Under the pieces are notes generated by a model, which was given only the letters and a program-made list of their open reading frames with translations, had not been told where the DNA came from and ran no database searches. Shown one piece after another: positions 23,380 through 36,480 of a DNA stretch of 64,000 nt (within the stretch, counting starts at the first letter, position 1; the number at the start of each line of letters is the position of its first letter). This stretch comes from Candidatus Omnitrophota bacterium. GTDB taxonomy: Bacteria; Omnitrophota; Omnitrophia; Omnitrophales; JACQLI01. Both the position numbers and the translations under genes were made by a program. The stretch lies in the NCBI GenBank assembly GCA_016179745.1, contig JACPCP010000014.1, forward strand, positions 751 to 64,750. Direction: 5' to 3'.

Positions 23380-23766
23380 TCATTCAAAGGCAAGTTTCCC
23401 TCCGAAATAGCCCGTCACCCCCACGATCAGACAGGTCAAAAGAGACCCGGCCAAAAGAAAAGCCGTCCCCTTTCTTCCCTCCCCTTTTTGAAACCGCCAT
23501 TGAAAGGCCCGTCCCGTAGAAAGAAGAAAAAGGCTCAGGGCGGAGAAGAAATGGGGGCGAACCATCGGAGGAAGCCCCTGGGCATCCACCAGTCCCGCTA
23601 TCATCGTTGGGAAGATTAATCCATAACCCAGCCGGAACGAGAAGAGCGCAAACCGCCGGTAGGCCGGGTCGCCCCGCCTGAACCAGAGTCCAAGCAGAAT
23701 GAGCTCGAGCACGAAGAAGGCAATGGGGAAATGAACCAGCGGCGGATGAAACAGGATTTCATCCAT
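23380..23766 (-). CDS. DUF2231-like membrane protein
   Basis: Start at ATG 23766 (MDEILFHPPLVHFPIAFF...); the HPxLVHFP motif is typical of DUF2231; four hydrophobic helices; 8-nt overlap with the YHS gene. Confidence 0.65.
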   Translation of the reverse strand: MDEILFHPPLVHFPIAFFVLELILLGLWFRRGDPAYRRFALFSFRLGYGLIFPTMIAGLVDAQGLPPMVRPHFFSALSLFLLSTGRAFQWRFQKGEGRKGTAFLLAGSLLTCLIVGVTGYFGGKLAFE

Positions 23767-24094
23767 GCGAATGACCGGCGTGTTCCTCTCCGCCGTGTCC
23801 GCTGTGACCCTCTTCAGCGTGTCCCCCGCCGCTGTGTGCGGTGTGCATGGCCGCAATGTATTTGGCAGGGTTTTTCTTGAATTTCTTTATGCATTGGGCG
23901 CAGCAGAAGTGGTATTGCTTCCCTTCGTGCACATAACTAAAGCCCGGGTTGACCGGGTCCCCGCTCAAAGGACAGATCGAATTGCCGACATCGATCACCT
24001 CAGCCGAAGCGGCCTGAGCGACCGCAGGCGACAACACCGGGGCCGACACAATTCCAATCATCAGAAGCAAGACAAACGTTCCCCTTTTAAACAT
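23759..24094 (-). CDS. Periplasmic YHS-domain metal-binding protein with a His-rich tail
   Basis: Signal peptide; YHFCCAQCIKKFKKNPAKY (YHS-type); C-terminus HTAHSGGGHAEEGHSGHGGEEHAGHSHG. Confidence 0.75.
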   Translation of the reverse strand: MFKRGTFVLLLMIGIVSAPVLSPAVAQAASAEVIDVGNSICPLSGDPVNPGFSYVHEGKQYHFCCAQCIKKFKKNPAKYIAAMHTAHSGGGHAEEGHSGHGGEEHAGHSHG

Positions 24095-27000
24095 TTTCTA
24101 CTGCTCCTTTCTTCATTTCAAAGTTCCATTTCCAAATCGCATAAATAGCCGGGTAGACCAAAAGTTCCAGGAGAAACGACGTCGCCAGTCCTCCGACCAT
24201 CGGCGCCGCCACTCGTTTCATCATGTCCGCCCCAGCCCCCGTGGACCACATGATTGGAAGAAGTCCGATAAAGGAAGTCATCACCGTCATCATCTTGGGC
24301 CGCACCCGTTTGACGGCGCCGTGAATGACGGCCTCGTTCAAGTCCTGCTCGGTGCGCATCTTCCCTTTTCTCACCCACTCGTTATAGGCCAAATCCAGAA
24401 AGAGGAGCATAAAGACCCCGGTTTCTGCGTCAAGCCCCATCAAGGCAATCATCCCGACCCAGACCGCAATCGAGATGTTGTAGCCCAAAATCCAAAGGAG
24501 CCAAATGGCTCCGATCAAGGAAAAGGGCACGGCTAAAAGCACCATTCCGGTTTTGGCCCACGACTTGGTGTTGAGGTGGAGAAGGATCACGATGATGAAA
24601 AGGGTCAGCGGCAAAACCACTTTGAGCCGCTCCCGGACACGGATCATATTTTCGTATTGACCGCTCCAGATCAGCCCATACCCGGATGGGAGTTCCAGAG
24701 ATTTCCCAACCGCCAGCTTGGCGTCCTTGACGAAACTCCCGATGTCCCGTCCGGCCACGTCCACGTAAACATAACCGGCCAGAAGCCCGTTTTCATTTCG
24801 AATCATCGCCGGCCCGGAAACAAGCCGGATATCGGCAAGCTGAACCAGAGGAATGTGCTGGCCCATCGGAGTCGGCACGAGGACCCGTTTTAACTTTTCG
24901 ATGTCGTCACGGAGTTCCCGGGAATAGCGGACATTGACGGGATAGCGCTCCCGGCCCTCGATCGTGGTCGTGATATTTTCACCGCCGATGGCCGACACCA
25001 CGACACTCTGGGCGTCCGCCACGGAAAGTCCATAACGGGCCAGTTCGTCCCGTTTGAGATCAAAATCCACGAAGTAGCCGCCGGCCACCCTTTCCGCATA
25101 AACACTGCGGGTCCCGGGCACATCTTTCAGGATCATCTCGAGGTGGGTCCCGACTTTTTCTATTTTCTTCAGGTCCGATCCGAGAATCTTGATTCCGATC
25201 GGGGTCCTCACCCCGGTTGAGAGCATGTCGATCCGGTTTTTGATCGGCATGGTCCAGGCGTTGGTCGTGCCGGGGATTCGAAGCTTCTGATCCATCTCCG
25301 CAATCAGTTCTTCATGGGAAATGGTTTCCGGCCAAAGGCTTTGAAGCGGCCATTTGAAAATTTCCGGGACCCAGGCGGAATACCAGCGCTCCTTCCGCCG
25401 CCATTCGGTGTCCGGCTTGAGAACCACCACGGTCTCCATCATGGAAAAGGGCGCCGGGTCGGTCGAGCTTTCCATTCGGCCCGACTTCCCGAAAACCCTT
25501 TCCACCTCGGGAAAGCCCTTGAGGATCTTGTCCTGCCTTTGGAGCAGCTCCTCGGCCTGGGTGACAGAAATTCCCGGGAGGGTCGTCGGCATATAAAGGA
25601 GGTCGCCTTCCCAGAGCGGGGGCATAAATTCGGAGCCCAGCTTGAAATAGACGGGGACCGTGGCCAGCATCAAAAGGAGGGCCGTCACAATGGTTACCTT
25701 CTTGTGTCTCAGGACAAACCGGCAGACGGGTTCATAAACTTTAAAGAGGATTCTGCTGACGGGGTGGTTCTCTTCCTTGTAATAAGTCCCGACCAGAGCG
25801 GTCGTGGTCAGTTTTGAAAGCCACGGCCACCGGAACTGAAAAGGTTCCATCCGGGTAAAGAGAAGCCGCATGGCCGGGTCGAGCGTGATGGCGAGAAAGG
25901 CGGCCAGAAGCATGGTCAGGTTTTTGGACCAGGCCAGCGGCTTGAAAAGCCTTCCTTCCTGATCGATCAGGGTAAAGATCGGCATGAACGCCACGGCGAT
26001 CACCAGGACCGAAAAGAAAACCGACGGCCCGACCTCCTTCAGGGCCTGGAGCCGGATCTCGTGATAATCTCCCTTTTTCCCGCCGTGGACCCATTCCTCA
26101 AGCCGCTTGTAGGCATTCTCCACCTCCACAATCGCACCGTCCACGAGGACGCCTATCGAAATGGCAATGCCCGAAAGACTCATGATGTTGGAGCTAAGGC
26201 CCATCGCCTTTAAGGGAATAAAAGAGAGAAGGACTGCAATCGGGATCGTCAGGATTGGAATCATGGCGGAAGGGAGGTGCCAGAGGAAAAGAAGGATGAC
26301 AAGGCTCACAACAATCATTTCCTGGGTCAGGGCGTGTTTCAGCGTGTCGATCGATCCTTTGATGAGTTCCGAGCGGTCATAGGTCACGACAAGCTCCACG
26401 CCTTCGGGAAACGAGGCCTTGAGTTCCTCCAATCTTTTTTTCACACGATCGATCACCTGCAGGGCGTTTTCTCCGTATCTCATCACCACCGTGCCGGAGA
26501 CCACATCCCCCTGGCCGTCCAGGTCTGAAAGTCCACGTCGGATTTCAGGGCCCAGGGCAACATTGGCCAGATGTTTCACGAGAATCGGCGTGCCCTTTGG
26601 GTCGACACCCACTACGATCTTTTCCAGGTCTTCGATCGATTTGGCATAACCCCGGCCTCGAACCATATATTCCGCCCCGGAAAATTCGAGAAGCCTTCCG
26701 CCGACCTCCTGATTGCCATTGCGGATGGCTTCAATCACCTTGGGCAAGGGAATGTTGAAGGCGAGCAGGCGGTTGGGGTCGACCGTGATTTGATACTGTT
26801 TGACGAACCCGCCGAGGGAAGCGACTTCGGCCACGCCCGGCACACTCTGCAAGTGATACCTCAAAGACCAATCCTGAAAACTCCGGAGCTCCTGCAAATT
26901 GTGTTTTCCGGTCTTGTCGACCAGGGCATATTGAAATACCCAGCCCACTCCGGTGGCGTCCGGCCCGAGCTCGGTCTTGACCCCTTCGGGAAGGCGGGGC

Positions 27001-27398
27001 AGGATTTTACTCAAATATTCCAGCGTCCGGCTCCGGGCCCAGTAGAGGTCGGTGCCGTCTTTAAAAATGACGTAGACATAAGAAAATCCAAAATCGGAAA
27101 ATCCACGGATGGCCTTCACTCGGGGCGCCCCGAGCATGGCCGTGACAATCGGGTAAGTCACCTGGTCTTCGATAATGTCCGGGCTCCGGTCCCAGCGGGA
27201 ATAGATGATGACCTGCGTATCAGAAAGGTCCGGGATGGCGTCCAGGGGAATGTTTCTGACGGACCAGACGGCGCCGGCCATCGCCACCGCCACCAAGACG
27301 AGCACGAAGAATTTATTGTGGGCCGAGAAGCCGATGATCTTCTCAATCAGCCCCTCTTTCTTCGGCGTCCCCGTTCCGGGGTTCGGATCAAACGCCAT
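24087..27398 (-). CDS. cusA: Heavy-metal efflux RND permease (CusA/CzcA family)
   Basis: About 1,103 aa from ATG 27398 (MAFDPNPG...GLIEKIIGFSAHNKF). Sequence and 12-TM architecture typical of HME-RND pumps. The track ORF is over-extended by 21 codons. Confidence 0.9.
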   Translation of the reverse strand: MAFDPNPGTGTPKKEGLIEKIIGFSAHNKFFVLVLVAVAMAGAVWSVRNIPLDAIPDLSDTQVIIYSRWDRSPDIIEDQVTYPIVTAMLGAPRVKAIRGFSDFGFSYVYVIFKDGTDLYWARSRTLEYLSKILPRLPEGVKTELGPDATGVGWVFQYALVDKTGKHNLQELRSFQDWSLRYHLQSVPGVAEVASLGGFVKQYQITVDPNRLLAFNIPLPKVIEAIRNGNQEVGGRLLEFSGAEYMVRGRGYAKSIEDLEKIVVGVDPKGTPILVKHLANVALGPEIRRGLSDLDGQGDVVSGTVVMRYGENALQVIDRVKKRLEELKASFPEGVELVVTYDRSELIKGSIDTLKHALTQEMIVVSLVILLFLWHLPSAMIPILTIPIAVLLSFIPLKAMGLSSNIMSLSGIAISIGVLVDGAIVEVENAYKRLEEWVHGGKKGDYHEIRLQALKEVGPSVFFSVLVIAVAFMPIFTLIDQEGRLFKPLAWSKNLTMLLAAFLAITLDPAMRLLFTRMEPFQFRWPWLSKLTTTALVGTYYKEENHPVSRILFKVYEPVCRFVLRHKKVTIVTALLLMLATVPVYFKLGSEFMPPLWEGDLLYMPTTLPGISVTQAEELLQRQDKILKGFPEVERVFGKSGRMESSTDPAPFSMMETVVVLKPDTEWRRKERWYSAWVPEIFKWPLQSLWPETISHEELIAEMDQKLRIPGTTNAWTMPIKNRIDMLSTGVRTPIGIKILGSDLKKIEKVGTHLEMILKDVPGTRSVYAERVAGGYFVDFDLKRDELARYGLSVADAQSVVVSAIGGENITTTIEGRERYPVNVRYSRELRDDIEKLKRVLVPTPMGQHIPLVQLADIRLVSGPAMIRNENGLLAGYVYVDVAGRDIGSFVKDAKLAVGKSLELPSGYGLIWSGQYENMIRVRERLKVVLPLTLFIIVILLHLNTKSWAKTGMVLLAVPFSLIGAIWLLWILGYNISIAVWVGMIALMGLDAETGVFMLLFLDLAYNEWVRKGKMRTEQDLNEAVIHGAVKRVRPKMMTVMTSFIGLLPIMWSTGAGADMMKRVAAPMVGGLATSFLLELLVYPAIYAIWKWNFEMKKGAVENV

Positions 27399-28686
27399 GC
27401 CGGTGCCCTTCTTCCTTTCCCAAACCTTCCAGCGCCGCTTTGAGACGGCTTTCGGAGTCAATCAGGAAATTGCCGCTCGTGACCACACTCTCGCCTTCGG
27501 CCACGCCGCTTCGAATTTCATAAAGCCCTTCGGTCTCGACACCGGCCGTGACCTCCCGGGGCTCGAAAGCCCCTCCGGCCGTGGCCACAAAAACAATACT
27601 CTTCTCCCCCGTCTGAAAGACCGCTTCCTTGGGAACGGCCAGCCTTTCTCCCAAGTCCACTTGGATGACGGCATTGACATACATCTCGGGCTTCAAGAGG
27701 CCGGCAGAATTGTCGAGCGAGGCCCGCACCCGGGCCGAACGGGTCACGGGATCCAGCACCCGGTCAATAGAACGAATCACTCCTTTAAACGTTTCGTCCG
27801 GGAGCGAAGAAGTTTCGGCCTCGATCCGAGTGCCCGTTTTTACCAGCGGAATTTCATACTCATAGATGGGCGCATACAACCAGACCGTGCCGCCCCCTTC
27901 GGAGTAAAGAAGGGAACGGTCCGGTTTTCCGGTGGACTCGATTTCCTTGATGAGCTCCTCGCTCAGCCCGAGGAGTCTCAGTTTGATCTGGGAGGAGTCG
28001 ACCAGCTTCTCGGCCTGCTCTTTAATCTCCGGCGCCGCCGCTTGGGCCTTTTGGGAGGCCTGGACCGCCTGCAGGAATTCCTCCTCTGCTTGGTAAAGCT
28101 CAGGATCGTAGGCGATTCTTCCCACCGTTCGGATTTCTTTAGAGAGATTGAGCTTCTGGACGGGCGCTGTCTTGAGGCCGATCACCTCCTGCTTCTCATC
28201 TCCCAGCTTCACTGCCGCATAACCTCCCGGGGCCTCCAACCGGATCGAAACCCCCAAGTCCTCTCCGCAGCCCGGGCACTTCCCAAGACGGGCGGACTTT
28301 TCGGTCATCACCAGCTTGCAGCCCCCCTTTTTACACTTGTGGAGAAGACAGACTTCTCCCGGTTTCATCCTCATCAGTTCTTCAATCGTAAAAGATTTCA
28401 ACTGCGGGGCCATGCCTTCGGCATGGCCTTCGGCAGGGCCTTCAGCAGGGCCCTCGCGGCCGCTCTCTGCTTTTTCCTTTTTGACGAGAGACATACTGCA
28501 AATCGGACAGGTGCCCGGCCGGTCTGAGGTGTAGGTGGGGTGCATGGGACAGTAATAAACGTCCTTCTGGGAAGATTCATCCGCCTGCGGATAAATTGGA
28601 AGGAGGCCTGAACGATAGGCCCAGAAGCCGGCGGCTCCGGCGATTGCCATCAAAATCAGAAAACTTAAAGAACGAAATTTAGCCAT
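27388..28686 (-). CDS. cusB: Efflux RND periplasmic adaptor (CusB-like) with N-terminal Cys-rich metal-binding modules
   Basis: Start at ATG 28686 (MAKFRSLSFLILMAIAG). YYCPMHPTYTSDRPGTCPICSM heavy-metal-binding domain; MFP-type beta-barrel / lipoyl-like remainder. Confidence 0.88.
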   Translation of the reverse strand: MAKFRSLSFLILMAIAGAAGFWAYRSGLLPIYPQADESSQKDVYYCPMHPTYTSDRPGTCPICSMSLVKKEKAESGREGPAEGPAEGHAEGMAPQLKSFTIEELMRMKPGEVCLLHKCKKGGCKLVMTEKSARLGKCPGCGEDLGVSIRLEAPGGYAAVKLGDEKQEVIGLKTAPVQKLNLSKEIRTVGRIAYDPELYQAEEEFLQAVQASQKAQAAAPEIKEQAEKLVDSSQIKLRLLGLSEELIKEIESTGKPDRSLLYSEGGGTVWLYAPIYEYEIPLVKTGTRIEAETSSLPDETFKGVIRSIDRVLDPVTRSARVRASLDNSAGLLKPEMYVNAVIQVDLGERLAVPKEAVFQTGEKSIVFVATAGGAFEPREVTAGVETEGLYEIRSGVAEGESVVTSGNFLIDSESRLKAALEGLGKEEGHRHGV

Positions 28687-30007
28687 TGGATTTCTCGCTT
28701 TCTTCGGGAAGGGGCTTTTCGAAATCAAGGCCCGTGGCCCGCACCAGATCGGCATGAGCCTTCAGGGCCTCGGTGGTGAACTGGACGTGGGAGAGCTTGG
28801 CGTTGAAATAGATGCGTTCGCTGTCGAGGAGATTCAAGAAGTCGGTCTTTGAGGCCTCGTAGCCGGCTTGGTCTGACTTTAAGGCCAGCTGGGCCTGGGG
28901 AATGACGGCCAGTTCATAGAGGTCCGCAATTTTCGCCGCCGAATCAAAACGGTAAAAGCTGTCTTTGACCTCAAAAAATGTTTCGTTCTTGGCCCGAAGC
29001 AAATCGGCCTTGCGGGCCTCTTCTAATTGTTTGGCTTCCTGGATTTCCGGAATAATCCGGTTCTGCCACAAGGGGACGTTAAATCGAATGGGGATCATCC
29101 AACTGTTTCCCTCTTTGTCGCTTCGGGTGTATTCGAAACCTACGTTCACGTCCGGAAGGTAGGCGAGTTTTGCGAGGCGCTTGGCGACGCCGCTCTTGGC
29201 GACTGCGGCCTCCGCCGCCTGAATTTCCTGACGGTTCTGGACCGCCAAGTTCACCAGTTCAACAAGAGTCAGTTTCAACACCGGTTTTCCCGGTAAAACG
29301 GCCTTCGCCATCGGTTCCATCGGGTCCCGGTTCAAAAGGGCATTGATGAGAGCGGCGGTGGACTCCCGCTGCTGCTTGAGTCCGTAGAGACGCTCCAAAC
29401 TCATCGAGACCTCAGCCTGGGCCTTGGCCACGTCTCTTTGCGCCCCGGTCAAATTGGAGTAACGGGCCTGGGCCACGGACTCAAACCGTTTGAGAAGGGC
29501 CTTGATCTCCTCAATGACGGCGATTGAGGCGTCCGTAAAATAAAGATCGTAATAGGCCTTGTTCAACCGGTTGACTACGTCCCGTTCGACCGCCAGGTAA
29601 CGGAAGCGGGCCCGTTCGGCCTCCTGCCTGGCCATTTTCCTTCTCCCGGCCAGTTTGACGGGAAAGGGGATTTCCTGCGACACCTCGAATTCCTTTTCCA
29701 TGTCTCCCGGGGCGATTCTCACCATGGGGTCCGGGAGGGACGAATCGATCCAGATCCGTTTTGTGGCGGCAAGCCACTCGGCCTTGGCGGAAAGGATTTC
29801 CGGATTCTCCCTTTTTGCATAGCGGATCAAAATCTCCAAAGGAACCGCTTCTAATTCTAGAGAGGGAGGGGCGGCAGGAGGTGGGGGGGCCTCGGGCTCC
29901 GCCCCGAAAGCCGGGGACCCCAGGAAGAATAGGAAAGGCAGAGCCAGCCCTAAAAACCCGAATCTGAAACTTTTTCTCCCGGGTTCCATCTTGCTCCCTT
30001 GTTCCAT
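28679..30007 (-). CDS. cusC: Outer-membrane efflux protein (TolC/CusC family)
   Basis: OEP-family repeats; signal sequence FRFGFLGLALPFLFFLGSPAFG. The start (30007 or 29989) is uncertain; the track ORF is over-extended. Confidence 0.85.
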   Translation of the reverse strand: MEQGSKMEPGRKSFRFGFLGLALPFLFFLGSPAFGAEPEAPPPPAAPPSLELEAVPLEILIRYAKRENPEILSAKAEWLAATKRIWIDSSLPDPMVRIAPGDMEKEFEVSQEIPFPVKLAGRRKMARQEAERARFRYLAVERDVVNRLNKAYYDLYFTDASIAVIEEIKALLKRFESVAQARYSNLTGAQRDVAKAQAEVSMSLERLYGLKQQRESTAALINALLNRDPMEPMAKAVLPGKPVLKLTLVELVNLAVQNRQEIQAAEAAVAKSGVAKRLAKLAYLPDVNVGFEYTRSDKEGNSWMIPIRFNVPLWQNRIIPEIQEAKQLEEARKADLLRAKNETFFEVKDSFYRFDSAAKIADLYELAVIPQAQLALKSDQAGYEASKTDFLNLLDSERIYFNAKLSHVQFTTEALKAHADLVRATGLDFEKPLPEESEKSNG

Positions 30008-30141: not shown

Positions 30142-30441
30142 TCAATTTCCCTCTTGGAACAGGACGGCCGCTTTTGTTCCAAACGAGCGTCCGGGTTTCT
30201 CTTCCCGGATCCTTTCAGCCGAAAGCGTCGGCTGGGGAATCCGCCAAAGAAAGGCCTGGACCGGTTTCGTCGGCGAAAGCTGGCTGCTCGAAACCAAAAG
30301 GATGGGCCCCGGTTGGGACCTCCCTTGTTCCGGCTGGGCGAGCGCAGCCACCGTTTTCGTGGCTCCTTCAAGGGCCCACACGTTTCCCGCCGAAACCAGC
30401 GAGACCAGCGCTGCGACGACTGCGAACTTCATTGTTTTCAT
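30142..30441 (-). CDS. Small secreted hypothetical protein
   Basis: AAGGAGG RBS 8 nt before ATG 30441; signal peptide MKTMKFAVVAALVSLVSAGNVWA; no motif recognised. Confidence 0.6.
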   Translation of the reverse strand: MKTMKFAVVAALVSLVSAGNVWALEGATKTVAALAQPEQGRSQPGPILLVSSSQLSPTKPVQAFLWRIPQPTLSAERIREEKPGRSFGTKAAVLFQEGN

Positions 30442-30522
30442 TGGAACCGCCTCCTTTGTTGAATGGAACCGTTCCCCGAAGGCACACCCTGCCTTCAGGG
30501 TCAAACCAGAAAAGAAAGTGTT

Positions 30523-30885
30523 CTAGATTCGAAGAATCTGGAGAGCGAGATAGAGAGGGGTGTTGGAAGAAAGGACGGGCGGACCGGAATCAACCGCCCC
30601 CAAGAGGCTGTGAGCTGAAAAAGAAGACGGCTGCGTCACGGCTTGAAGGCCCGCTTCGGAAATCAAAAAAAGCCGGGGAGAAAGAGGAAGAGCGGCCTCG
30701 ATTTTTTCCAGCGTGCAGTTCTGACGGTCCTGATCCATCATCGGGCAGCAATCGGTATGGGAAGCCAGCGCCGGAAGTCCGGAGGAATCTCTCTCCACGG
30801 GTGGACAGCAGTCACAGGCCGAAGCCACGGCCGGAATGGCCAGCATCAAAAGAAGAATGAGTGAGATAATTTTTTTCATCGTCAT
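30523..30885 (-). CDS. Secreted Cys-rich protein (CDCCP / DCCP motifs), putative periplasmic copper-binding protein
   Basis: 120 aa; signal peptide MTMKKIISLILLLMLAIPAVASA then CDCCPPVERD...TDCCPMMDQDRQNC; ATGA overlap with the csoR stop. Confidence 0.65.
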   Translation of the reverse strand: MTMKKIISLILLLMLAIPAVASACDCCPPVERDSSGLPALASHTDCCPMMDQDRQNCTLEKIEAALPLSPRLFLISEAGLQAVTQPSSFSAHSLLGAVDSGPPVLSSNTPLYLALQILRI

Positions 30886-31163
30886 TTCCTGAATTTTGAA
30901 ATCAAATCCAGAATTTCGTTGAACTTTTCGTTCCGTTCCTTCGTGGAGCCGGAACGGACGGCGTGGCTCACACAGCCCTCCAAATGCCGCCTCAGGATAT
31001 TATTTTCGACCTTTTCGATCGCCCCCTGAATGGAATTTAAAAGCTGGAGGACGTCGACGCAGTAACGGCCTTCCTGAATCATCTTCTGGACGCCCCGGAC
31101 CTGGCCTTCAATCTTCCGGAGCCTTTCCAGTTCGTCCTTCTGCGACGGATAGGCGTTTGTCAT
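30882..31163 (-). CDS. csoR: CsoR-family copper-sensing transcriptional repressor
   Basis: Start at ATG 31163 (AGGTGA RBS). MTNAYPSQKDELERLRKIEGQVRGVQKMI...RYCVDVL...RHLEGC carries the C-H-x3-C Cu(I) ligand pattern of CsoR. Confidence 0.88.
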   Translation of the reverse strand: MTNAYPSQKDELERLRKIEGQVRGVQKMIQEGRYCVDVLQLLNSIQGAIEKVENNILRRHLEGCVSHAVRSGSTKERNEKFNEILDLISKFRK

Positions 31164-31180: not shown

Positions 31181-31210
31181 AAGATACCATACCCCCCCAG
31201 GGTATGTCAA
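31181..31210 (-). promoter_or_regulatory. Promoter of the csoR-cus operon with a CsoR operator between the -35 and -10 elements
   Basis: Minus strand reads TTGACA (31210-31205), 18 nt, TATCTT (31186-31181). The spacer contains ATACCC-CCCCA-GGGTAT (31189-31205), the GC-tract inverted repeat type described for CsoR operators. Confidence 0.7.
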
Positions 31211-31224
31211 GCTTCGGTTTATTT

Positions 31225-31392
31225 GGGTACACCACCGTAATTGCGGCCCCTTTCCCCTCTCCCTCTAAAGAGGGAGAGGGGCAGGGTGAGGGTGGAGCGT
31301 GGCGGCAACTGCCAATTCACCCCCTCACCTGAATCCTCTCCCCCAAGGGGGAGAGGAGAAAAATGAATCAGCGCAGCTACGGTGGTGCACCC
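31225..31392. repeat. 168-bp composite palindromic (MITE-like) element with about 21-bp terminal inverted repeats and two inverted copies of the CCTCTCCC/GGGAGAGG hairpin core
   Basis: Left end gggtacaccaccgtaattgcg (31225-31245) is the reverse complement, apart from 3 mismatches, of the right end cgcagctacggtggtgcaccc (31372-31392). Internal cores lie at 31254-31295 and 31318-31357 in opposite orientation. Confidence 0.7.
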
Positions 31393-31466: not shown

Positions 31467-31481
31467 TATTTGGAGGGGGCC

Positions 31482-31934
31482 ATGGCTGAGAGAGACAATT
31501 TCATCCGCACGTTTCGGGAGATCCAACCCAAGTTTTCACGCCTCCTGACCCGCATCCTGACAAAGGCCGACCTCACGCTGCCGCAATTTGCCCTTCTTAA
31601 TCAGCTCGTCAATTACGGAACGCTGTCGATGACAGAAGCGAGCGACAAACTCGGAATCACCAAGCCTGCGGTCACAAACCTCGTGGACCGCCTCGAAAAA
31701 AGCAAATGCCTGAAGCGGCTCCCCCACTCCCAAGACCGGCGGGTTTCCCTGCTCGAGATCCAGCCCCGGGGAGAACAGATCGTCCGTGACGCCCAGGCCC
31801 AGATTCTCCCGGTCCTTTTGAAAACACTCGACCGCTTTGGCGACGGAGAGAAAGAGACGATCGCCAGGTTTTATTCCCATCTCTCAAAAACCCTGGATGA
31901 AGTCTTGGAAAAAACCCGGGGCCGTAAAAAATGA
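31482..31934 (+). CDS. MarR-family transcriptional regulator
   Basis: About 150 aa; winged-helix region LTLPQFALLNQLVNYGTLSMTEASDKLGITKPAVTNLVDRLE. ATG 31482 is preceded by GGAGGGGG; the track start at 31470 is a TTG. Confidence 0.85.
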   Translation: MAERDNFIRTFREIQPKFSRLLTRILTKADLTLPQFALLNQLVNYGTLSMTEASDKLGITKPAVTNLVDRLEKSKCLKRLPHSQDRRVSLLEIQPRGEQIVRDAQAQILPVLLKTLDRFGDGEKETIARFYSHLSKTLDEVLEKTRGRKK

Positions 31935-33325
31935 ACCGGCCTTCAGGGGACAGTCCCCTTTTTCTGATTTTTATTTTTCTCCTTCCGATTTTGATGCTAA
32001 GCTCTTTTTCTGACCCTGCCTGGCCCATGGCCAAACGGCCTCCCGCCGAGGCCGGCACTCCTGGCGAGTTTTCCGCTGCGCCCGCAGAAGATCACACTTC
32101 TCAGAAACCTGAAGTTCCAAAACTCTTGACGCTCGAAGATTGTTTTGAACAGGCGAGGAAACGGAGCGAGACATTGGCCATCAAGGAGGAGGCCGTCAAA
32201 GAAACCACGGCCCAATTCCTTAAGGCGACAAGCGAGGCCCTGGGAGATGTTGATTTCGAAATGACCCGCCAGTTGCAGCAGGAGACAGTCGCTTCGGATC
32301 CTTCTTCGGTCGGGAGGGCCTTGGCCGATCCCGACCGCTTGGAGAGCAAATTTACGATCTCACAACCGATCTTTCAGGGATTCAAATCGCTCGGGGCCCT
32401 GGCCGGCGCCGGGAATCTTCGGAAACAAAGAAAAGCCGAGTGGCTCCGTGAAAAGGAGCTTTTGTTCCTCGAGGTGGCCGGGGTCTTCTACCGGATCCTC
32501 CGCCTCCACAAAGAGCATGAAACGTTGGAAAGGACCCATGAACTTTTTCGGGAACGAATCCGGGAACTCGAGGCCCGGGAAGCCATCGGCCGCTCCCGCT
32601 CGAGTGAAGTCCTCACCGCCCAAGCCCGAATGAAACTCATCGATTCGGACCGGGCCCGTCTTCAAGGCGATCTGAACCGGGCCAAACATATTTTTGAATT
32701 CCTGGTCGGCGTCCCGGCCGAAGCGGACCAGCTTCAGGAAGAGGAAATCAAGGAACCGGGCCGGGAGGAGCTGACCCGCCTTTTGCTTCAAGTCAATGAA
32801 CGTTCGGACGTGAAGGCGGCCGAGCGGGCCCTGAAGGTGGCCCGTCAGAATGTCACCGTCGCCCAGAGCGAACTCTGGCCCGAGGTGACGCTCGAACACA
32901 ACCAATGGCAGCGCCGGGAAGGGAGCCAGCCCGATATTGAATGGGACACCCTTTTCAAAGTCACGGTCCCCCTTTTCCGGGGCGGTGAGACGGCCGGCAA
33001 AGTGAAAGAGGCCTGGAGCCAGTGGAAAAAGGCCAGGCTCAACTACCGGCTCGTCAAACGCAAGGCGGTCCTTGATGTCAAGGAGGCCTTCGAGCTTTGG
33101 GCCAGCTCGCTTCGTGTCGCCCGCTTGCTGGAAGAGGCCCGCACCGCCTCTGAGGAAAATTACAAGGTCCAGAAAGAGGAATACTCGAGAAACCTCGTCA
33201 GCAACCTGGATGTTCTTGAGGCGCTCGAAGGATTTCATTCCACCGCCCGTGAGGCCCTTCAGGCCCATTACGAGATGAAACAAAATTATCGGGCCCTCGA
33301 GGTGGCGGCAGGGAGTGTCCCGTGA
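31931..33325 (+). CDS. Outer-membrane efflux protein (TolC family)
   Basis: 464 aa; OEP-type repeats; ATGA overlap with marR and GTGA overlap with the RND gene. Confidence 0.82.
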   Translation: MNRPSGDSPLFLIFIFLLPILMLSSFSDPAWPMAKRPPAEAGTPGEFSAAPAEDHTSQKPEVPKLLTLEDCFEQARKRSETLAIKEEAVKETTAQFLKATSEALGDVDFEMTRQLQQETVASDPSSVGRALADPDRLESKFTISQPIFQGFKSLGALAGAGNLRKQRKAEWLREKELLFLEVAGVFYRILRLHKEHETLERTHELFRERIRELEAREAIGRSRSSEVLTAQARMKLIDSDRARLQGDLNRAKHIFEFLVGVPAEADQLQEEEIKEPGREELTRLLLQVNERSDVKAAERALKVARQNVTVAQSELWPEVTLEHNQWQRREGSQPDIEWDTLFKVTVPLFRGGETAGKVKEAWSQWKKARLNYRLVKRKAVLDVKEAFELWASSLRVARLLEEARTASEENYKVQKEEYSRNLVSNLDVLEALEGFHSTAREALQAHYEMKQNYRALEVAAGSVP

Positions 33326-36300
33326 ATCTATCTGAAGTTTCCATCAAGAACCCGGTCTTCGCCTGGATGCTGATGCTCGGGCTGATGATCTTCGGACTCT
33401 TGAGCTTCCGGGGAATGGGGGTCGGGCAGATGCCGGACGTCGACTTCCCGGTCCTTTCGGTCAATGTCACCTGGGAAGGGGCGGCCCCGGAAGTCATGGA
33501 AACCGACGTTGTCGACATCCTTGAAGATGCGGTGATAGGGGTCGAGGGACTCCGGGAGGTGGCCTCCTCCACCCGTCAGGGACAGGCCGAGATCAACCTT
33601 GAGTTTGAACTGGAGCGGGATATCGACATTGCCCTCCAGGAGGTCCAGAGCAAAATCTCGGAAGTCCAACGCCGCCTCCCCCGGGACATTGAACCGCCTG
33701 TGATCATGAAGACGAATCCCGAGGACCAGCCGATCATGTGGGTCGGGGTCTCCACCACTCGTCCTTTAAGGGAACTCATGGAGTTCGTGGACAATCAGGT
33801 GAAGGACCGTTTCAAAACCATTTCCGGTGTCGGCGAAGTTTTTATGGGCGGGTTCCTTGAGCGAAATCTCAGGGTCTGGCTCGATCCCAAAAAACTCGAA
33901 GCCTATCAGCTGACGGTCGAAGACGTGATCGGAGCGATTCAAGAGGAGCACGTCGAAATCCCAGCCGGCCGGCTTGAGACCCCTGAAAAGGAACTCACGG
34001 TGCGGGCCATGGGCGAGGCCCGGAGCGTGCGGGATTTCCGGAAGATTGTCATCACCCGGCGGGGAGGGCAGCCGATCTACCGGCCCATTCCGCTCAAGGA
34101 AGTCGCCACGATTGAGGACGGGCTCTCGGATTTCCGGCGTCTCTCACGAGTCATGGGAAAACCGGCCGTGGGCCTTGGGATCCGAAAACAGCGGGGGGCC
34201 AACTCTGTTGACGTGGCAAAGAAAGTCCGCCAGCGGATGGAAGAAGTCCGCCGGGAGCTTCCGGAGGGTTTTGACATCAATGTCAATTTCGACAGCACCC
34301 GTTTTATTGAAGACTCCGTGCAGGAGCTGGTCTTTACCCTTTTGCTCTCCGCCCTTTTGACTTCGCTCGTCTGCTGGCTCTTTCTCGGCTCCTGGAGCAC
34401 CACGGTGAATATTCTCCTTGCGATCCCGACTTCCATCTTGGGAACTTTCATTGTGCTGAAGTTTTCAGGCTTCACGCTCAACACCTTCACGCTCCTCGGA
34501 CTCTCGCTCGCCATCGGAATCGTGGTCGACGACGCCATTATGGTGCTCGAAAATATTGTCCGCCACCGGGAGAAGGGAGACACCCGACTCGACGCCGCCC
34601 TCAAGGGGACCCAGCAGATCCAGTTTGCGGCACTGGCGGCCACGATCGCCATCGTCGCCATCTTCCTCCCGGTCGCCTACATGAAAGGAATCATCGGGAA
34701 GTTCTTTTTTCAGTTTGCCGTAACAATCTCAGCCGCTGTCCTGCTCTCACTCCTCGAGGCCCTGACCCTGACCCCGATGCGCTGCTCCCAGCTCCTTGAA
34801 ATCCAGGAAAGAAGGCCGGGGATTGGAAAGGATTTCGAATCGGGGATGAAACGACTCACCCATTTTTACCGCCAGACCCTGGATTTTGCGCTGGTCCGAA
34901 AAAAGAAAGTCCTCGTGGCGGCGGGCGGATTTTTCGTCCTCTCCCTGGTCCTCGTCCCTTTTCTCAGGAAGGAATTTGTCCCGGCGCAGGACCAGAGTAT
35001 GTTTCTCGTCCGGATGCAAACGCCGGTCGGCTCCTCCATGGCCTTCACGAGCGAACGTTTTAAAGAGGCTGAGGCCTTTGCCATGAACCGGCCCGAGATC
35101 CAGCGTTATTTCTGTGCCGTCGGGGGCTTTGGCGGCGGCGAAGTCAACACGGGGGTCCTTTTTGTTACGCTCAAACCGCCCCACAAGCGGCCGGTGGATC
35201 CGAAGCTCCACCGGCGTTTGAGCCAGCAGGAGATCATGGGAATCTACCGCAAAGAGCTCAATAAAATTGCCGGGGTTGAGAGGGCTGTGATTCAGGACCT
35301 TTCCACCCGGGGGTTTGCGGCCCAGCGGGGGTTCCCAGTGGAATTCACGGTGCGGGGGCCGGAGTGGGAGAAACTCGTCGGGTTTTCGGATGAAATCCAA
35401 AAGAAGATGAAAGAGACCGATCTTTTTGCGGACGTCGACACCGATTACCAGGCCGGGATGCCGGAAGTGAGGATTTATCCGGACCGGGACAAGGCCTTTG
35501 ACCGGGGCGTTTCGATCGGTTCGGTCGCACGGACGATCAACGCCATGATCGGAGGCCTCCCCGTGGCCAAATACACGAAGGGGGGCCGGCGCTACGACGT
35601 CCGGGTGCGGGTCCGCCAGGAAGAGCGGCAATCGGCCGACGACATCAAACGGCTCCTTGCCTGGAACAACCGGGGGGAACTCGTCCGCCTCGAAGAGGTG
35701 GTCAAGGTCGTCGAGACCTCGAGCCTTCTCGGCATCACCCGCCGGGGCCGGGAGCGGGCCATCGGACTTTTTGCCAACGTCACCCCGGGAAAATCACAGG
35801 CGGCGGCCCTCGACAAAGCAGCCAAAATCGGGCAGGAAATTCTTCCGGAGGGTTATCGCATCGTCTTCAGCGGCACGAGCCAGACCTTCCGGGAATCATT
35901 CCAAAGTTTGATCTTCGCCCTCTGGCTCGGGATCCTGATTTCCTACATGGTCCTCGCCTCTCAATTCAATCACCTGGTCCATCCTTTCACCGTGCTTCTC
36001 GCCCTCCCCTTTTCGATCTCCGGGGCCTTCTTTGCGCTTTGGATCGGAAACCAGTCGCTCAATATCTTCAGTATGATCGGGCTTCTGCTCCTGCTTGGAA
36101 TCGTGAAGAAAAATTCGATCCTCCTGGTGGAATTCACGAATCAGATGCGGGAGCAAGGAATGGGAACTTTGGAAGCGCTCAAGGCCGCCTGCCCGATCCG
36201 TTTTCGTCCGATTGTGATGACGTCCGTTTCGACGATTGCCGCCGCCATTCCTCCGGCTTTGGCCTGGGGCCCCGGCGCTGAAACCCGCATCCCGATGGCC

Positions 36301-36480
36301 ATTGCCGTGATCGGCGGTCTGGTGGTCTCGACCCTCCTCACCCTCTACGTCGTCCCCTGCGCCTATCTTGTCCTCGATCCTTTGGAACAAAAAGGAGAGG
36401 CCACCAAGCTTCTCCGCAGAGGAACCGATTTTCTTTATTCCTTCTTTCGAAGGCTCGCCACAAAAAAACCCTCCATCTGA
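33322..36480 (+). CDS. RND efflux permease (AcrB/HAE1-like)
   Basis: 1,052 aa; N-terminus SIKNPVFAWMLMLGLMIFGLLSF...PVLSVNVTWEGAAPEVMET and 12-TM organisation typical of AcrB-family pumps. Confidence 0.9.
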   Translation: MNLSEVSIKNPVFAWMLMLGLMIFGLLSFRGMGVGQMPDVDFPVLSVNVTWEGAAPEVMETDVVDILEDAVIGVEGLREVASSTRQGQAEINLEFELERDIDIALQEVQSKISEVQRRLPRDIEPPVIMKTNPEDQPIMWVGVSTTRPLRELMEFVDNQVKDRFKTISGVGEVFMGGFLERNLRVWLDPKKLEAYQLTVEDVIGAIQEEHVEIPAGRLETPEKELTVRAMGEARSVRDFRKIVITRRGGQPIYRPIPLKEVATIEDGLSDFRRLSRVMGKPAVGLGIRKQRGANSVDVAKKVRQRMEEVRRELPEGFDINVNFDSTRFIEDSVQELVFTLLLSALLTSLVCWLFLGSWSTTVNILLAIPTSILGTFIVLKFSGFTLNTFTLLGLSLAIGIVVDDAIMVLENIVRHREKGDTRLDAALKGTQQIQFAALAATIAIVAIFLPVAYMKGIIGKFFFQFAVTISAAVLLSLLEALTLTPMRCSQLLEIQERRPGIGKDFESGMKRLTHFYRQTLDFALVRKKKVLVAAGGFFVLSLVLVPFLRKEFVPAQDQSMFLVRMQTPVGSSMAFTSERFKEAEAFAMNRPEIQRYFCAVGGFGGGEVNTGVLFVTLKPPHKRPVDPKLHRRLSQQEIMGIYRKELNKIAGVERAVIQDLSTRGFAAQRGFPVEFTVRGPEWEKLVGFSDEIQKKMKETDLFADVDTDYQAGMPEVRIYPDRDKAFDRGVSIGSVARTINAMIGGLPVAKYTKGGRRYDVRVRVRQEERQSADDIKRLLAWNNRGELVRLEEVVKVVETSSLLGITRRGRERAIGLFANVTPGKSQAAALDKAAKIGQEILPEGYRIVFSGTSQTFRESFQSLIFALWLGILISYMVLASQFNHLVHPFTVLLALPFSISGAFFALWIGNQSLNIFSMIGLLLLLGIVKKNSILLVEFTNQMREQGMGTLEALKAACPIRFRPIVMTSVSTIAAAIPPALAWGPGAETRIPMAIAVIGGLVVSTLLTLYVVPCAYLVLDPLEQKGEATKLLRRGTDFLYSFFRRLATKKPSI

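What the first reader, a model, noticed from the sequence alone, without database searches (positions are those of the whole stretch)
30523..30885. Secreted protein with duplicated (C)DCCP motifs directly coupled to csoR
After a clear signal peptide the mature protein starts ACDCCPPVERD. About 20 residues later it repeats with TDCCPMMDQDRQNC, giving six cysteines in ~45 aa. Its ATG overlaps the csoR stop (ATGA). A CxCC cluster has been described as a copper-cluster ligand in CopG-type proteins, but the rest of this sequence does not resemble any copper protein I can name. It may be a new periplasmic Cu(I) chaperone or sink feeding the Cus pump.
Basis: partly seen in the sequence, partly recalled or inferred. 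Interest (0 to 1): 0.6.

Follow-up and report, generated by a model that had tools for sequence, protein, structure and literature searches.

The report
Copper-sensing leader peptide gating Cus pump
The small cysteine-rich exported protein is real and copper-linked, but it looks less like a free copper chaperone than like a CutF/SilD-type "leader" peptide whose translation unmasks the ribosome-binding site of the copper efflux pump genes behind it.

Summary
ORF 30523-30885 (-) encodes 120 aa: a signal peptide, then CDCC, DCC and a sixth Cys. Its ATG overlaps the csoR stop, and it heads a CusCBA-type operon.

It belongs to a rare family with no Pfam, NCBIfam or PDB match: about 65 cluster representatives from uncultured bacteria, the one named source being Candidatus Omnitrophica. 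Five cysteines are 90% or more conserved, and almost every member has exactly six.

Three results argue against a plain chaperone:
- AlphaFold predicts no fold for the mature part. Yet the spacing from the Cys clusters to the C-terminus is fixed (74 +/- 1 residues), and the last 11 residues (PLYLxxxxLR[ILF]-stop) are conserved at the amino-acid level.
- In all 15 loci read, the bases just after the stop codon mimic the 16S anti-SD. They pair with the Shine-Dalgarno of the next gene, and the GGAGG core pairs with nt +4/5 to +9/10 in most loci. A ribosome at the stop would cover these bases. Covariation supports the helix.
- SilD of C. metallidurans, a named CutF-like protein, ends in the same 11-residue register and has the same stop-to-SD stem.

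Best reading (about 0.6): a new variant of the CutF/CruR/SilD exported copper-sensing leader peptides. Stalling and copper dependence are inferred, not shown.

The parts
31181..31210 (-). Sigma-70-like promoter (TTGACA-18-TATCTT) overlapped by the palindrome CATACCCTGGGGGGGTATG (31206..31188). This is a candidate CsoR operator.
   Evidence: 10 of 12 promoter match; the inverted repeat is reported in the same scan. Calling it a CsoR box is my inference from known GC-rich CsoR operators.
30882..31163 (-). csoR, a Cu(I)-sensing repressor of 93 aa from ATG 31163. Its stop overlaps the start of the Cys-ORF.
   Evidence: PF02583 at 1.1e-25. PDB 4m1p CsoR at 6e-20, with Cys/His/Cys ligand positions conserved.
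30523..30885 (-). The finding: a 120-aa exported Cys-rich leader protein of a new Pfam-less family. An alternative start lies at 30879.
30817..30885 (-). Signal peptide, residues 1-23 (MTMKKIISLILLLMLAIPAVASA).
   Evidence: Read from the sequence. AF2 predicts a single helix at 3-23.
30805..30816 (-). Cys cluster 1, C24-D-C26-C27, at the mature N-terminus.
   Evidence: C24 and C26 invariant, C27 at least 90% conserved in 69 sequences.
30715..30756 (-). Cys cluster 2: T-D-C46-C47-P-M-M ... C57.
   Evidence: C47 invariant and C46 at least 90% conserved. Spacing from cluster 1 to cluster 2 is 22 residues, IQR 22-23.
30577..30585 (-). G101-P-P103 motif, 19 residues before the C-terminus.
   Evidence: A PP is present in 53 of 67 members and sits at -19 in 39 of them.
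30526..30558 (-). C-terminal 11-mer P110-LYLALQILR-I120, running to the stop codon (TAG, 30523-30525). Candidate ribosome pause or arrest peptide.
   Evidence: P, L, L and R are at least 90% conserved. Synonymous codon variation occurs at the invariant residues. SilD ends in the same register, PLAILHCCFRI*.
30439..30525 (-). Leader RNA element, from the stop codon to the next start codon. The outer helix pairs the anti-SD mimic (30511..30523) with the SD AAAGGAGG (30450..30457) and its flank (30444..30447). The inner hairpin pairs 30490..30500 with 30474..30484.
   Evidence: MFE -31.2 kcal/mol, z = -2.6. Same fold in 15 loci. RNAalifold and covariance-model covariation. No Rfam family.
30142..30441 (-). 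99-aa secreted protein of unknown family. It is the first gene whose SD is masked by the leader element.
   Evidence: Conserved in L001 and L002 at 62-78% identity. No Pfam or NCBIfam match.
28679..30007 (-). CusC-like outer membrane factor (start uncertain).
   Evidence: PF02321 at 5e-37.
27388..28755 (-). CusB-like membrane fusion protein with an N-terminal HMBD (YYCPMHP). Start uncertain.
   Evidence: PF16576 at 1e-29 and PF19335 at 1e-12.
24087..27398 (-). CusA-like HME-RND permease.
   Evidence: PDB CusA at 6.5e-36 over the tested segment. The equivalents of M573, M623 and M672 are all Met.
23759..24094 (-). Secreted YHS-domain protein with a His-rich tail, the last conserved gene of the operon apart from DUF2231.
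   Evidence: PF04945 at 2e-9. Same position in L001.

Best explanation
The ORF is a cis-acting, co-translationally exported copper-sensing leader peptide of the CutF/CruR/SilD kind, in a new sequence family.

Proposed mechanism:
1. CsoR controls transcription of the csoR-leader-pump mRNA in response to cytoplasmic Cu(I).
2. On that mRNA the Shine-Dalgarno of the first pump-operon gene is locked in a helix with a 16S-like anti-SD mimic. The mimic lies 1-15 nt after the leader's stop codon.
3. The helix opens only while a ribosome sits on the last codons or the stop codon of the leader. Pump translation therefore depends on how long ribosomes dwell there.
4. Dwell time is proposed to be set by the conserved C-terminal peptide (GPP...PLYLxxxxLR[ILF]) inside the exit tunnel.
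5. At that moment the two Cys clusters, held about 74-96 residues upstream, are exposed on the periplasmic side of SecYEG. Cu(I) bound there would change the folding or disulfide-derived pulling force on the nascent chain.

Shown by sequence and computation:
- the gene, the family and the Cys conservation;
- the fixed spacing and the peptide-level conservation of the tail;
- the phased, covarying anti-SD:SD helix;
- the copper specificity of the neighbouring genes.

Inferred:
- ribosome pausing at the tail;
- Cu binding by the cysteines;
- the direction of the response.
For: Family and position:
- About 65 small full-length homologues share the same anatomy.
- In every locus read (15 distinct) the ORF lies 48-104 nt upstream, on the same strand, of Cus-type pump genes. 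csoR is directly upstream in 8 of them and an ECF sigma/anti-sigma/Metal_resist set in one.

Signs of a nascent-chain sensor rather than a folded protein:
- The mature part is predicted unfolded, pLDDT below 50. Mean column identity is only 29%.
- Even so, the CC#2-to-C-terminus distance is 74 residues (IQR 73-75) and CxCC-to-CC is 22. This recalls the conserved motif spacing shown to matter in CruR (PMC9426467).
- The C-terminal 11-mer is conserved as protein, with synonymous codon changes.

The RNA helix:
- In 14 of the 15 loci the stop-to-start region pairs the nucleotides right after the stop with the SD; the L114 MFE fold differs.
- The GGAGG core pairs with nt +5..+9 after the stop in 9 of the 12 loci computed. 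By inspection it does so in L134, at +6..+10 in L135 and at +4..+9 in L137.
- Cognate 5'/3' arms pair better than non-cognate arms: -16.4 vs -12.8 kcal/mol, no permutation of 20,000 as good.
- RNAalifold finds 13 of 25 pairs compensatory.
- A covariance model built from 7 loci finds four held-out loci at the right coordinates and a single site in the 64-kb window.
- 87.9% of cells are paired against 77.7% in shuffles; 18 of 25 pairs change on both sides; 0 of 500 shuffles reach this; slid controls give 45-63%.

Precedent:
- CutF senses periplasmic Cu, stalls, and melts a stem-loop that hides the cutO SD (PMC9973294; bioRxiv 10.1101/2025.02.05.636593).
- OEP genes are the commonest downstream neighbours of CutF-like genes.
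- SilD, a named CutF-like protein, ends ...PPPRPLAILHCCFRI* in the same register as PLYLALQILRI*. Its intergenic region also forms a stem from the stop codon to the silC SD and AUG.
Against: - No experiment exists for this family. Stalling at the tail is inferred only.
- The tail has no PPP or RAPP. The PP motif sits 19 codons before the stop, too far for a ribosome paused there to reach the helix.
- The stop contexts (TAA/TAG/TGA followed by a purine in most loci) are not obviously weak.
- An SD masked by upstream-ORF-dependent structure also occurs in ordinary translational coupling, without any sensing.
- Profile-profile comparison with the SilD family is not significant (Prob 1.3%; C-terminal match to SilD alone E 0.0022, Prob 12.9%). 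No member hits PF11162. Common descent with CutF-like proteins is therefore unproven.
- The window's own arm duplex is the weakest of the set (-8.4 kcal/mol).
- The covariation alignment was fitted to the model structure, and it includes one doubtful extra hit.
Confidence: 0.6

Rival explanations
1. The mature peptide is a stable periplasmic (or inner-membrane-proximal) Cu(I) chaperone or sink. Its six thiolates form a metallothionein-like cluster, for example Cu4S6. It hands Cu(I) to the HMBD of the CusB-like adaptor or to CusA, replacing the absent CusF. The conserved C-terminal tail is a docking peptide for the pump. The RNA helix only provides stoichiometric translational coupling.
For: - Six conserved Cys in a CxCC+CC+C or CxCC+CxCC arrangement.
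- CxCC ligates a Cu4 cluster in CopG (PMC7558416).
- No CusF gene in the operon.
- The pump adaptor carries a metal-binding HMBD.
- The related-looking CusD of C. metallidurans has been interpreted as a Cu(I)-sequestering envelope protein that feeds CusF (PMC10304878).
- Intrinsic disorder is normal for apo-metallothioneins.
Against: - A chaperone with a disordered linker has no obvious need for a linker length fixed to +/-1 residue while the linker sequence drifts.
- It also has no obvious need for a conserved motif ending exactly at the stop codon, with an anti-SD mimic phased +5..+9 after it.
- Operon neighbours that are merely coupled usually overlap, as csoR and this ORF do. They do not usually carry a conserved two-helix element of 48-104 nt.
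- The experimentally studied analogue CutF is degraded on export and works only in cis.
- No fold or family match to any chaperone.
Confidence: 0.25
2. Plain translational coupling with a small pump accessory subunit. The protein is a disulfide-stabilised or membrane-associated structural partner of the RND complex, comparable in role to small RND partners such as AcrZ. It has no metal sensing, and its cysteines form three disulfides.
For: - It is always adjacent to the pump genes.
- The even number of Cys (six) is compatible with three disulfides.
- It has a hydrophobic C-terminal tail.
Against: - The neighbouring regulators and pump are copper-specific.
- Vicinal CC pairs make poor disulfide partners and are typical of metal sites (established chemistry, my knowledge).
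- No predicted fold even with a 69-sequence alignment.
- The family comes from uncultured, probably anaerobic bacteria (my knowledge, not tested), where periplasmic disulfide formation is uncertain.
Confidence: 0.07
3. It is not a functional gene: a chance ORF, or an ORF that exists only to carry RNA structure.
For: None, apart from the small size and the lack of any database family.
Against: - 70 database hits, about 65 of them full-length and 110-130 aa, with conserved motifs.
- Amino-acid-level conservation with synonymous variation.
- Conserved synteny.
Confidence: 0.01

Closest known systems
SilD / CusD of Cupriavidus metallidurans (small ORFs heading silDCBA and cusDCBAF; listed as CutF-like in PMC9973294)
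   Same: - Exported protein of about 130 aa, with the first Cys right after the signal or anchor segment (AAAYAC vs AVASAC).
- Cys-rich metal motifs.
- Located directly upstream of the OEP gene of a Cu/Ag RND pump.
- C-terminal 11-mer in the same register and ending at the stop: P-L-x-[IL]-x-x-x-x-[FL]-R-[ILT]*.
- The intergenic stem runs from the stop codon to the SD and AUG of the next gene.
   Different: - No significant profile similarity.
- SilD has a central LCxxHC motif and HCC inside the tail, and PPP(P) directly abuts the tail.
- The window family has CxCC x2, no Cys in the tail, and a GPP 6-8 residues before the tail.
- Different lineage: Betaproteobacteria vs uncultured bacteria, with Candidatus Omnitrophica as the only source name.
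CutF of Rhodobacter capsulatus (DUF2946-like; PMC9973294 and bioRxiv 10.1101/2025.02.05.636593)
   Same: - Small Sec/SRP-exported protein with several Cys in the mature N-terminal part and a conserved C-terminal motif.
- A stem-loop hides the SD of the next gene.
- The copper-homeostasis gene downstream is regulated in cis.
   Different: - CutF uses CxxxC and a C-terminal PPP. It regulates a multicopper oxidase, not an RND pump.
- The window family has CxCC clusters and a hydrophobic tail with Arg.
- Its mRNA helix is phased to the stop codon rather than to a PPP site.
- There is no experimental evidence for the window family.
CruR / Pfam DUF2946 (PF11162), Bordetella pertussis Bp2923 (PMC9426467)
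   Same: - An exported upstream ORF heading a copper-related operon.
- A Cys motif and a C-terminal motif held at a conserved spacing.
   Different: - DUF2946 is defined by CXXC and RAPP three residues from the end, with 45 residues between them. Neither motif is present here, and no member matches PF11162.
- CruR acts through Rho-dependent termination, and copper relieves its arrest.
CopG (DUF411) and CusF periplasmic copper proteins
   Same: - CxCC is a Cu-cluster ligand in CopG.
- CusF is the small protein encoded with cusCBA.
   Different: - CopG has a thioredoxin-like fold and CusF an OB fold with Met/His/Trp ligands.
- This protein matches neither family and has no predicted fold.

Membership tests
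Pfam DUF2946 (PF11162) / CruR | Match to the PF11162 profile | tested here: not met
   0 of 69 family members hit PF11162 at E <= 1.
Pfam DUF2946 (PF11162) / CruR | CXXC motif plus a C-terminal RAPP three residues from the end (PMC9426467) | tested here: not met
   The motifs here are CxCC and CC(P). The C-terminus is PLYLxxxxLR[ILF], with no RAPP.
Pfam DUF2946 (PF11162) / CruR | Export signal, and conserved spacing between the metal motif and the C-terminal motif | tested here: met
   Signal peptide in all members, by inspection. CC#2-to-C-terminus spacing is 74 residues, IQR 73-75. The spacing value differs from CruR's 45.
CutF-like proteins (rule-based definition of PMC9973294) | [quoted passage not shown] | tested here: met
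   110-146 aa. Intergenic distance 48-104 nt in 15 loci.
CutF-like proteins (rule-based definition of PMC9973294) | [quoted passage not shown] | tested here: not met
   The PP lies at -19 or -18 from the end in 48 of 53 members that have one. Only a single Pro, at -11, falls inside the last 15 residues.
CutF-like proteins (mechanistic definition) | An mRNA stem-loop shields the SD of the downstream gene and can be opened by a ribosome at the 3' end of the leader ORF | tested here: met
   Predicted in 14 of 15 loci, with covariation support. This is prediction only.
CutF-like proteins (mechanistic definition) | Cu-dependent ribosome stalling, action only in cis, and rapid degradation after export | not testable with these tools
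   Needs reporter fusions, toeprinting and pulse-labelling.
SilD/CusD family | Detectable sequence homology | tested here: inconclusive
   hhalign of the family against the SilD family: Prob 1.3%. Against SilD alone: a C-terminal 16-column match, E 0.0022, Prob 12.9%.
SilD/CusD family | C-terminal ...PL-x-[IL]-L-H-C-C-F-R-x tail and a central LCxxHC motif | tested here: inconclusive
   The tail register and the P, L, aliphatic, [FL] and R positions are shared. The HCC and LCxxHC motifs are absent.
CopG (DUF411) | Thioredoxin-like fold carrying CxCC plus Met ligands | tested here: not met
   No Pfam match. AF2 predicts no folded domain. Only the CxCC string is shared.
CusF | OB-fold with a Met2His(Trp) site (PF11604) | tested here: not met
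   No Pfam match. No Trp or His/Met pattern in the mature part.
Metallothionein-like Cu(I)-thiolate cluster peptides | A Cys set sufficient for a polynuclear Cu(I) cluster, and actual metal binding | not testable with these tools
   Six conserved Cys would suffice for a Cu4S6 cluster. Binding needs Cu(I) titration and mass spectrometry.

The most novel reading that the evidence does not exclude
The tail P-L-x-Phi-x-x-x-x-Phi-R-Phi-stop is a previously unrecognised ribosome pause or arrest peptide. It is shared, by descent or by convergence, between this family from uncultured bacteria and betaproteobacterial SilD/CusD. Together with a 16S anti-SD mimic phased +5..+9 after the stop codon, it forms a transmembrane Cu(I) sensor. 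The six-Cys nascent domain on the periplasmic side of SecYEG sets ribosome dwell time and so gates translation of an RND efflux pump. Combined with CsoR on the same mRNA, this would sense cytoplasmic and periplasmic copper without any two-component system.
Probability: 0.4. Interest if true: 0.7.

Novelty: new variant of a known kind. Interest (0 to 1): 0.55.

Why it matters
Metal-sensing exported leader peptides (CruR 2022, CutF 2023-25) are a very recent regulatory principle. They are so far defined by DUF2946-type CXXC/CxxxC and RAPP/PPP motifs, mainly in Proteobacteria and Bacteroidota.

This family would extend the principle in four ways:
- to a poorly known, uncultured lineage;
- to different metal ligands (a duplicated CxCC);
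- to a non-polyproline C-terminal element;
- to direct control of a CusCBA pump.

It also offers an unusually clean, testable geometry: the SD core pairs with nt +5..+9 after the stop. The shared tail suggests that in SilD/CusD of the model metal-resistant bacterium C. metallidurans the functional arrest element may be the last 11 residues, which can be tested in a tractable organism. Practically, it warns annotators that small Cys-rich ORFs in front of metal pumps should not be labelled as chaperones by default.

Tried and rejected
- **Family and structure searches.** Pfam and NCBIfam scans of the protein, and Pfam scans of all 69 family members, found nothing. DUF2946, DUF411 and CusF were absent. 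A PDB profile search gave only noise, E >= 0.29. AF2 with the family alignment gave no fold (pLDDT 55, pTM 0.24), so no fold search was run.
- **Word-indexed search.** The search with the family profile returned only 11 proteins because of the candidate cap.
- **Locus searches.**
  - With a narrow alignment it found one genome locus, the same as L001, and nothing in JGI metagenomes.
- **MAFFT alignment.** The alignment of all 12 intergenic regions was out of register. I replaced it with a 7-sequence alignment and a covariance-model realignment.
- **Stop codons.** I first thought TGA was never used. Two distant members (L134, L137) use TGA, so I dropped that idea.
- **CzcI of pMOL30.** It ends ...RAPDRPQWQRLA*, a DUF2946-like RAP motif and not the PLxxxxxxxRx tail, so it is not the closest relative.
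- **Rfam.** No family covers the leader RNA.
- **Other readings.** A RiPP or chalkophore precursor was rejected because no modifying enzymes lie nearby. A lipoprotein was considered, but many members have L, F, V or I at -1 of the first Cys, which does not fit a lipobox.
Full report
**1. The observation**

ORF 30523..30885 on the minus strand encodes 120 aa:
MTMKKIISLILLLMLAIPAVASACDCCPPVERDSSGLPALASHTDCCPMMDQDRQNCTLEKIEAALPLSPRLFLISEAGLQAVTQPSSFSAHSLLGAVDSGPPVLSSNTPLYLALQILRI.

- All six cysteines (24, 26, 27, 46, 47, 57) lie within 34 residues just after a classical Sec-type signal: KK, a 14-residue hydrophobic core, then A-S-A.
- The ATG (30885-30883) overlaps the TGA of the upstream gene (30884-30882).
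- The upstream gene is a CsoR. It matches PF02583 at 1e-25. Its best solved relative is Geobacillus CsoR 4m1p, and the Cys-His-Cys Cu(I) ligand positions are kept.
- A sigma-70-like promoter (31210..31181) is overlapped by the palindrome CATACCCTGGGGGGGTATG. I read this as a CsoR operator; that is inference.

Downstream on the same strand lie:
- a 99-aa secreted ORF (30142..30441);
- a CusC-like OEP;
- a CusB-like adaptor with an HMBD domain;
- a CusA-like RND protein;
- a YHS-domain protein and a DUF2231 protein.

The RND protein aligns to E. coli CusA (6.5e-36 over the tested segment). Met occupies all three positions of the Cu(I) triad, M573, M623 and M672.

**2. The family**

The protein has no Pfam or NCBIfam match. 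The identical protein is a "hypothetical protein" of a Candidatus Omnitrophica MAG.

An exhaustive phmmer search of 1.84 billion cluster representatives gave 70 hits at E <= 1e-3. About 65 are full-length proteins of 110-146 aa. The four long hits look like repetitive Cys-rich noise.

In an alignment of 69 sequences:
- C24, C26 and C47 are invariant.
- C27, C46, P18, P110, L111, L113 and R119 are at least 90% conserved.
- Mean column identity is only 29%.

Nearly every member has exactly six Cys. They are arranged either as CxCC...CC...C, as here, or as CxCC...CxCC. None of the 69 members hits DUF2946, DUF411/CopG or CusF at E <= 1. A family profile finds nothing in the PDB. AlphaFold2 with the family alignment predicts only the signal-peptide helix. 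The mature part has pLDDT below 50.

**3. Genomic context**

I read 15 distinct loci: the window, L001-L006, L008, L009, L024, L096, L114, L134, L135 and L137.
- In all of them the ORF sits directly upstream, on the same strand and 48-104 nt away, of the pump genes. In three loci the 99-aa ORF comes first, followed by the pump genes.
- csoR is the immediate upstream gene in 8 loci.
- In L134 the upstream genes are an ECF sigma factor, a zf-HC2 anti-sigma factor and a Metal_resist protein.
- In the remaining loci the upstream neighbour is unrelated, unidentified or only partly read (for example an rRNA methyltransferase in L003).

The invariant partner is therefore the pump, not CsoR.

**4. Features a chaperone does not need**

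(a) *Fixed spacing.* The linker sequence is not conserved and is predicted disordered, yet its length is tightly held:
- CxCC to CC is 22 residues (IQR 22-23).
- CC#2 to the C-terminus is 74 residues (IQR 73-75, range 67-78).
- A PP motif lies at -19 in 39 of the 53 members that have one.

About 74 residues is roughly the length of the ribosomal tunnel plus the SecYEG channel (my estimate). All Cys would then be on the periplasmic side when the ribosome reaches the stop codon.

(b) *A conserved tail.* The last 11 residues, P-L-Y-L-x-x-x-x-L-R-[ILF], run to the stop codon. They are conserved as amino acids: Pro uses four codons, and Leu, Tyr and Arg use two each across 12 loci.

(c) *An anti-SD mimic phased to the stop codon.* Immediately after the stop lies a pyrimidine stretch that mimics the 3' end of 16S rRNA, for example AUUUCUCCUUUCUU. 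It pairs with the AAAGGAGG Shine-Dalgarno of the next gene and encloses a GC-rich inner hairpin.
- The MFE fold of 11 of the first 12 loci shows this pairing. The three more distant loci added later show it too. L114 folds differently in the MFE but can form the pairing.
- The phase is striking. The GGAGG core pairs with nucleotides +5 to +9 after the stop in 9 of the 12 loci computed. By inspection it does so in L134, at +6..+10 in L135 and at +4..+9 in L137.
- A ribosome with the stop codon in its A site covers about 10 nt beyond it. This is established toeprint geometry, from my own knowledge. Such a ribosome would free exactly the SD core.

**5. Is the helix real?**

- Cognate 5'/3' arms pair more strongly than non-cognate combinations: mean -16.4 vs -12.8 kcal/mol. 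None of 20,000 permutations was as good. Shuffled arms gave -9.3.
- RNAalifold on seven loci returns the two-helix structure, with 13 of 25 pairs showing compensatory changes.
- A covariance model built from those seven finds the held-out loci L001, L004, L003 and L005 at exactly the stop-to-start coordinates. It finds a single site in the 64-kb window.
- On the resulting 12-row alignment, 87.9% of cells pair, against 77.7% in column shuffles. 18 of 25 pairs change on both sides. No shuffle of 500 reaches any of the five measures. Sliding the partners by 1-3 columns drops pairing to 45-63%.
- Caveats: the alignment is fitted to the model, the sequences are related, and one weak extra hit (L002:4666-4737) is included.
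- No Rfam family covers the element.

**6. What is known that looks like this**

The literature search led to the CutF-like proteins.
[quoted passage not shown] The stalled ribosome melts a stem-loop that hides the SD of cutO. It works only in cis, and the exported protein is rapidly degraded (PMC9973294; bioRxiv 10.1101/2025.02.05.636593).
- B. pertussis CruR (DUF2946: CXXC plus RAPP, with a spacing that matters) is a related upstream ORF acting through Rho (PMC9426467).
- The commonest downstream neighbour of CutF-like genes is an OEP of an RND pump. SilD and CusD of C. metallidurans are named members.
- A different reading exists for CusD: a Cu(I)-sequestering envelope protein feeding CusF (PMC10304878).

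I fetched silD from pMOL30.
- SilD ends ...PRPPPRPLAILHCCFRI*, the same 11-residue register as PLYLALQILRI*. The shared pattern is P, L, x, aliphatic, x, x, x, x, F/L, R, I, stop. Some family members, such as PLYLAHRVFRL*, are closer still.
- Its first Cys also follows the signal segment directly.
- hhalign picks out exactly this C-terminal match (E 0.0022, Prob 12.9%).
- The silD-silC spacer forms a stem from the stop codon to the silC SD and AUG (-37 kcal/mol, z = -3.45).
- A SilD-family profile against this family is not significant, Prob 1.3%.
- SilD itself lacks a Pfam hit, although two of its homologues carry PF11162.
- CzcI has a RAP-type end instead.

**7. Interpretation**

The best-supported explanation is a CutF/SilD-like copper-sensing leader peptide, in three steps.
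1. Transcription is set by CsoR, which senses cytoplasmic Cu(I).
2. Translation of the pump genes requires a ribosome at the very end of the leader ORF.
3. The dwell time there is proposed to depend on the conserved tail in the tunnel and on what the six-Cys domain does outside the membrane: Cu(I) binding versus folding or disulfide formation.

The first two steps rest on sequence, predicted structure and covariation. The pause and its copper dependence are inference by analogy.

Points against this reading:
- There is no PPP or RAPP motif.
- The PP motif is too far upstream to matter for the helix.
- Homology to CutF-like proteins is not statistically established.
- Translational coupling alone would also explain the masked SD.

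The chaperone or sink reading remains possible (about 0.25) and could coexist with the sensor role.

**8. Novelty and score**

The kind of system has been known since 2022-2025. This family differs in several ways:
- It is outside Pfam.
- It has different ligand motifs and a different C-terminal element.
- It comes from uncultured bacteria (one source names Candidatus Omnitrophica) and is combined with CsoR.
- It has an unusually regular stop-phased anti-SD mimic.

I rate it a new variant of a known kind, with interest 0.55.

Noticed in passing
window 30142-30441 (-): A 99-aa secreted protein with no Pfam or NCBIfam family. It is conserved in L001 and L002 at 62-78% identity, with an invariant stretch RIPQPTLSAERIREEKPG. 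It is the first gene behind the leader in three loci and absent from the others. It has no Cys, His or Met in the mature part, so it is not an obvious metal binder.
   Followed up: partly
window 23759-24094 (-) and 23380-23856 (-): The operon ends with a secreted YHS/TRASH-domain protein carrying a His/Gly/Glu-rich tail (HSGGGHAEEGHSGHGGEEHAGHSHG), followed by a DUF2231 membrane protein. Both keep the same positions in L001.
   Followed up: partly
window 27388-28755 (-), about residues 140-175 of the adaptor: Besides its HMBD, the CusB-like adaptor has a second Cys-rich insert, CLLHKCKKGGCKLV...KCPGCGEDLG. The insert gives weak zinc-ribbon-like Pfam hits and may be an extra metal site.
   Followed up: no
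window 31181-31210 (-): The palindrome CATACCCTGGGGGGGTATG overlaps the -35/-10 region of the csoR promoter. It looks like a CsoR operator.
   Followed up: partly
window 31245-31347: A long, near-perfect inverted repeat (CCCCTCTCCCTCTAAAGAGGGAGAGGGG...) lies between the csoR promoter and the divergent MarR gene. It gives only weak miRNA-type Rfam noise. It may be a terminator or a repeat element.
   Followed up: no
window 31470-36480 (+): A second, divergently transcribed efflux operon (MarR regulator, OEP, RND permease) lies next to the copper operon. L002 has the same arrangement.
   Followed up: no
L134 905-4790: A distant family member (P0067) is not preceded by csoR. Its upstream genes are an ECF sigma factor, a zf-HC2 anti-sigma factor and a PF13801 Metal_resist protein. 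It keeps the anti-SD mimic at +5..+9 and uses a TGA stop.
   Followed up: partly
L002 4666-4737 (+): The leader-RNA covariance model gives a weak extra hit (E 0.21) at the junction of the MarR and OEP genes of the neighbouring operon, on the opposite strand to those genes. It is probably noise.
   Followed up: no
P0006 (6857 aa), P0030, P0037, P0047: Four very long proteins match the Cys-motif region of the query in 4-10 repeated stretches each. They look like repetitive Cys-rich proteins unrelated to the family.
   Followed up: no
L133 15177-15610 (pMOL30 czcI-czcC): CzcI ends in RAPDRPQWQRLA*, a DUF2946-like RAP motif. A strong hairpin (-34 kcal/mol, z = -4) starts within its last codons, which suggests the same leader logic for the czc operon.
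   Followed up: partly
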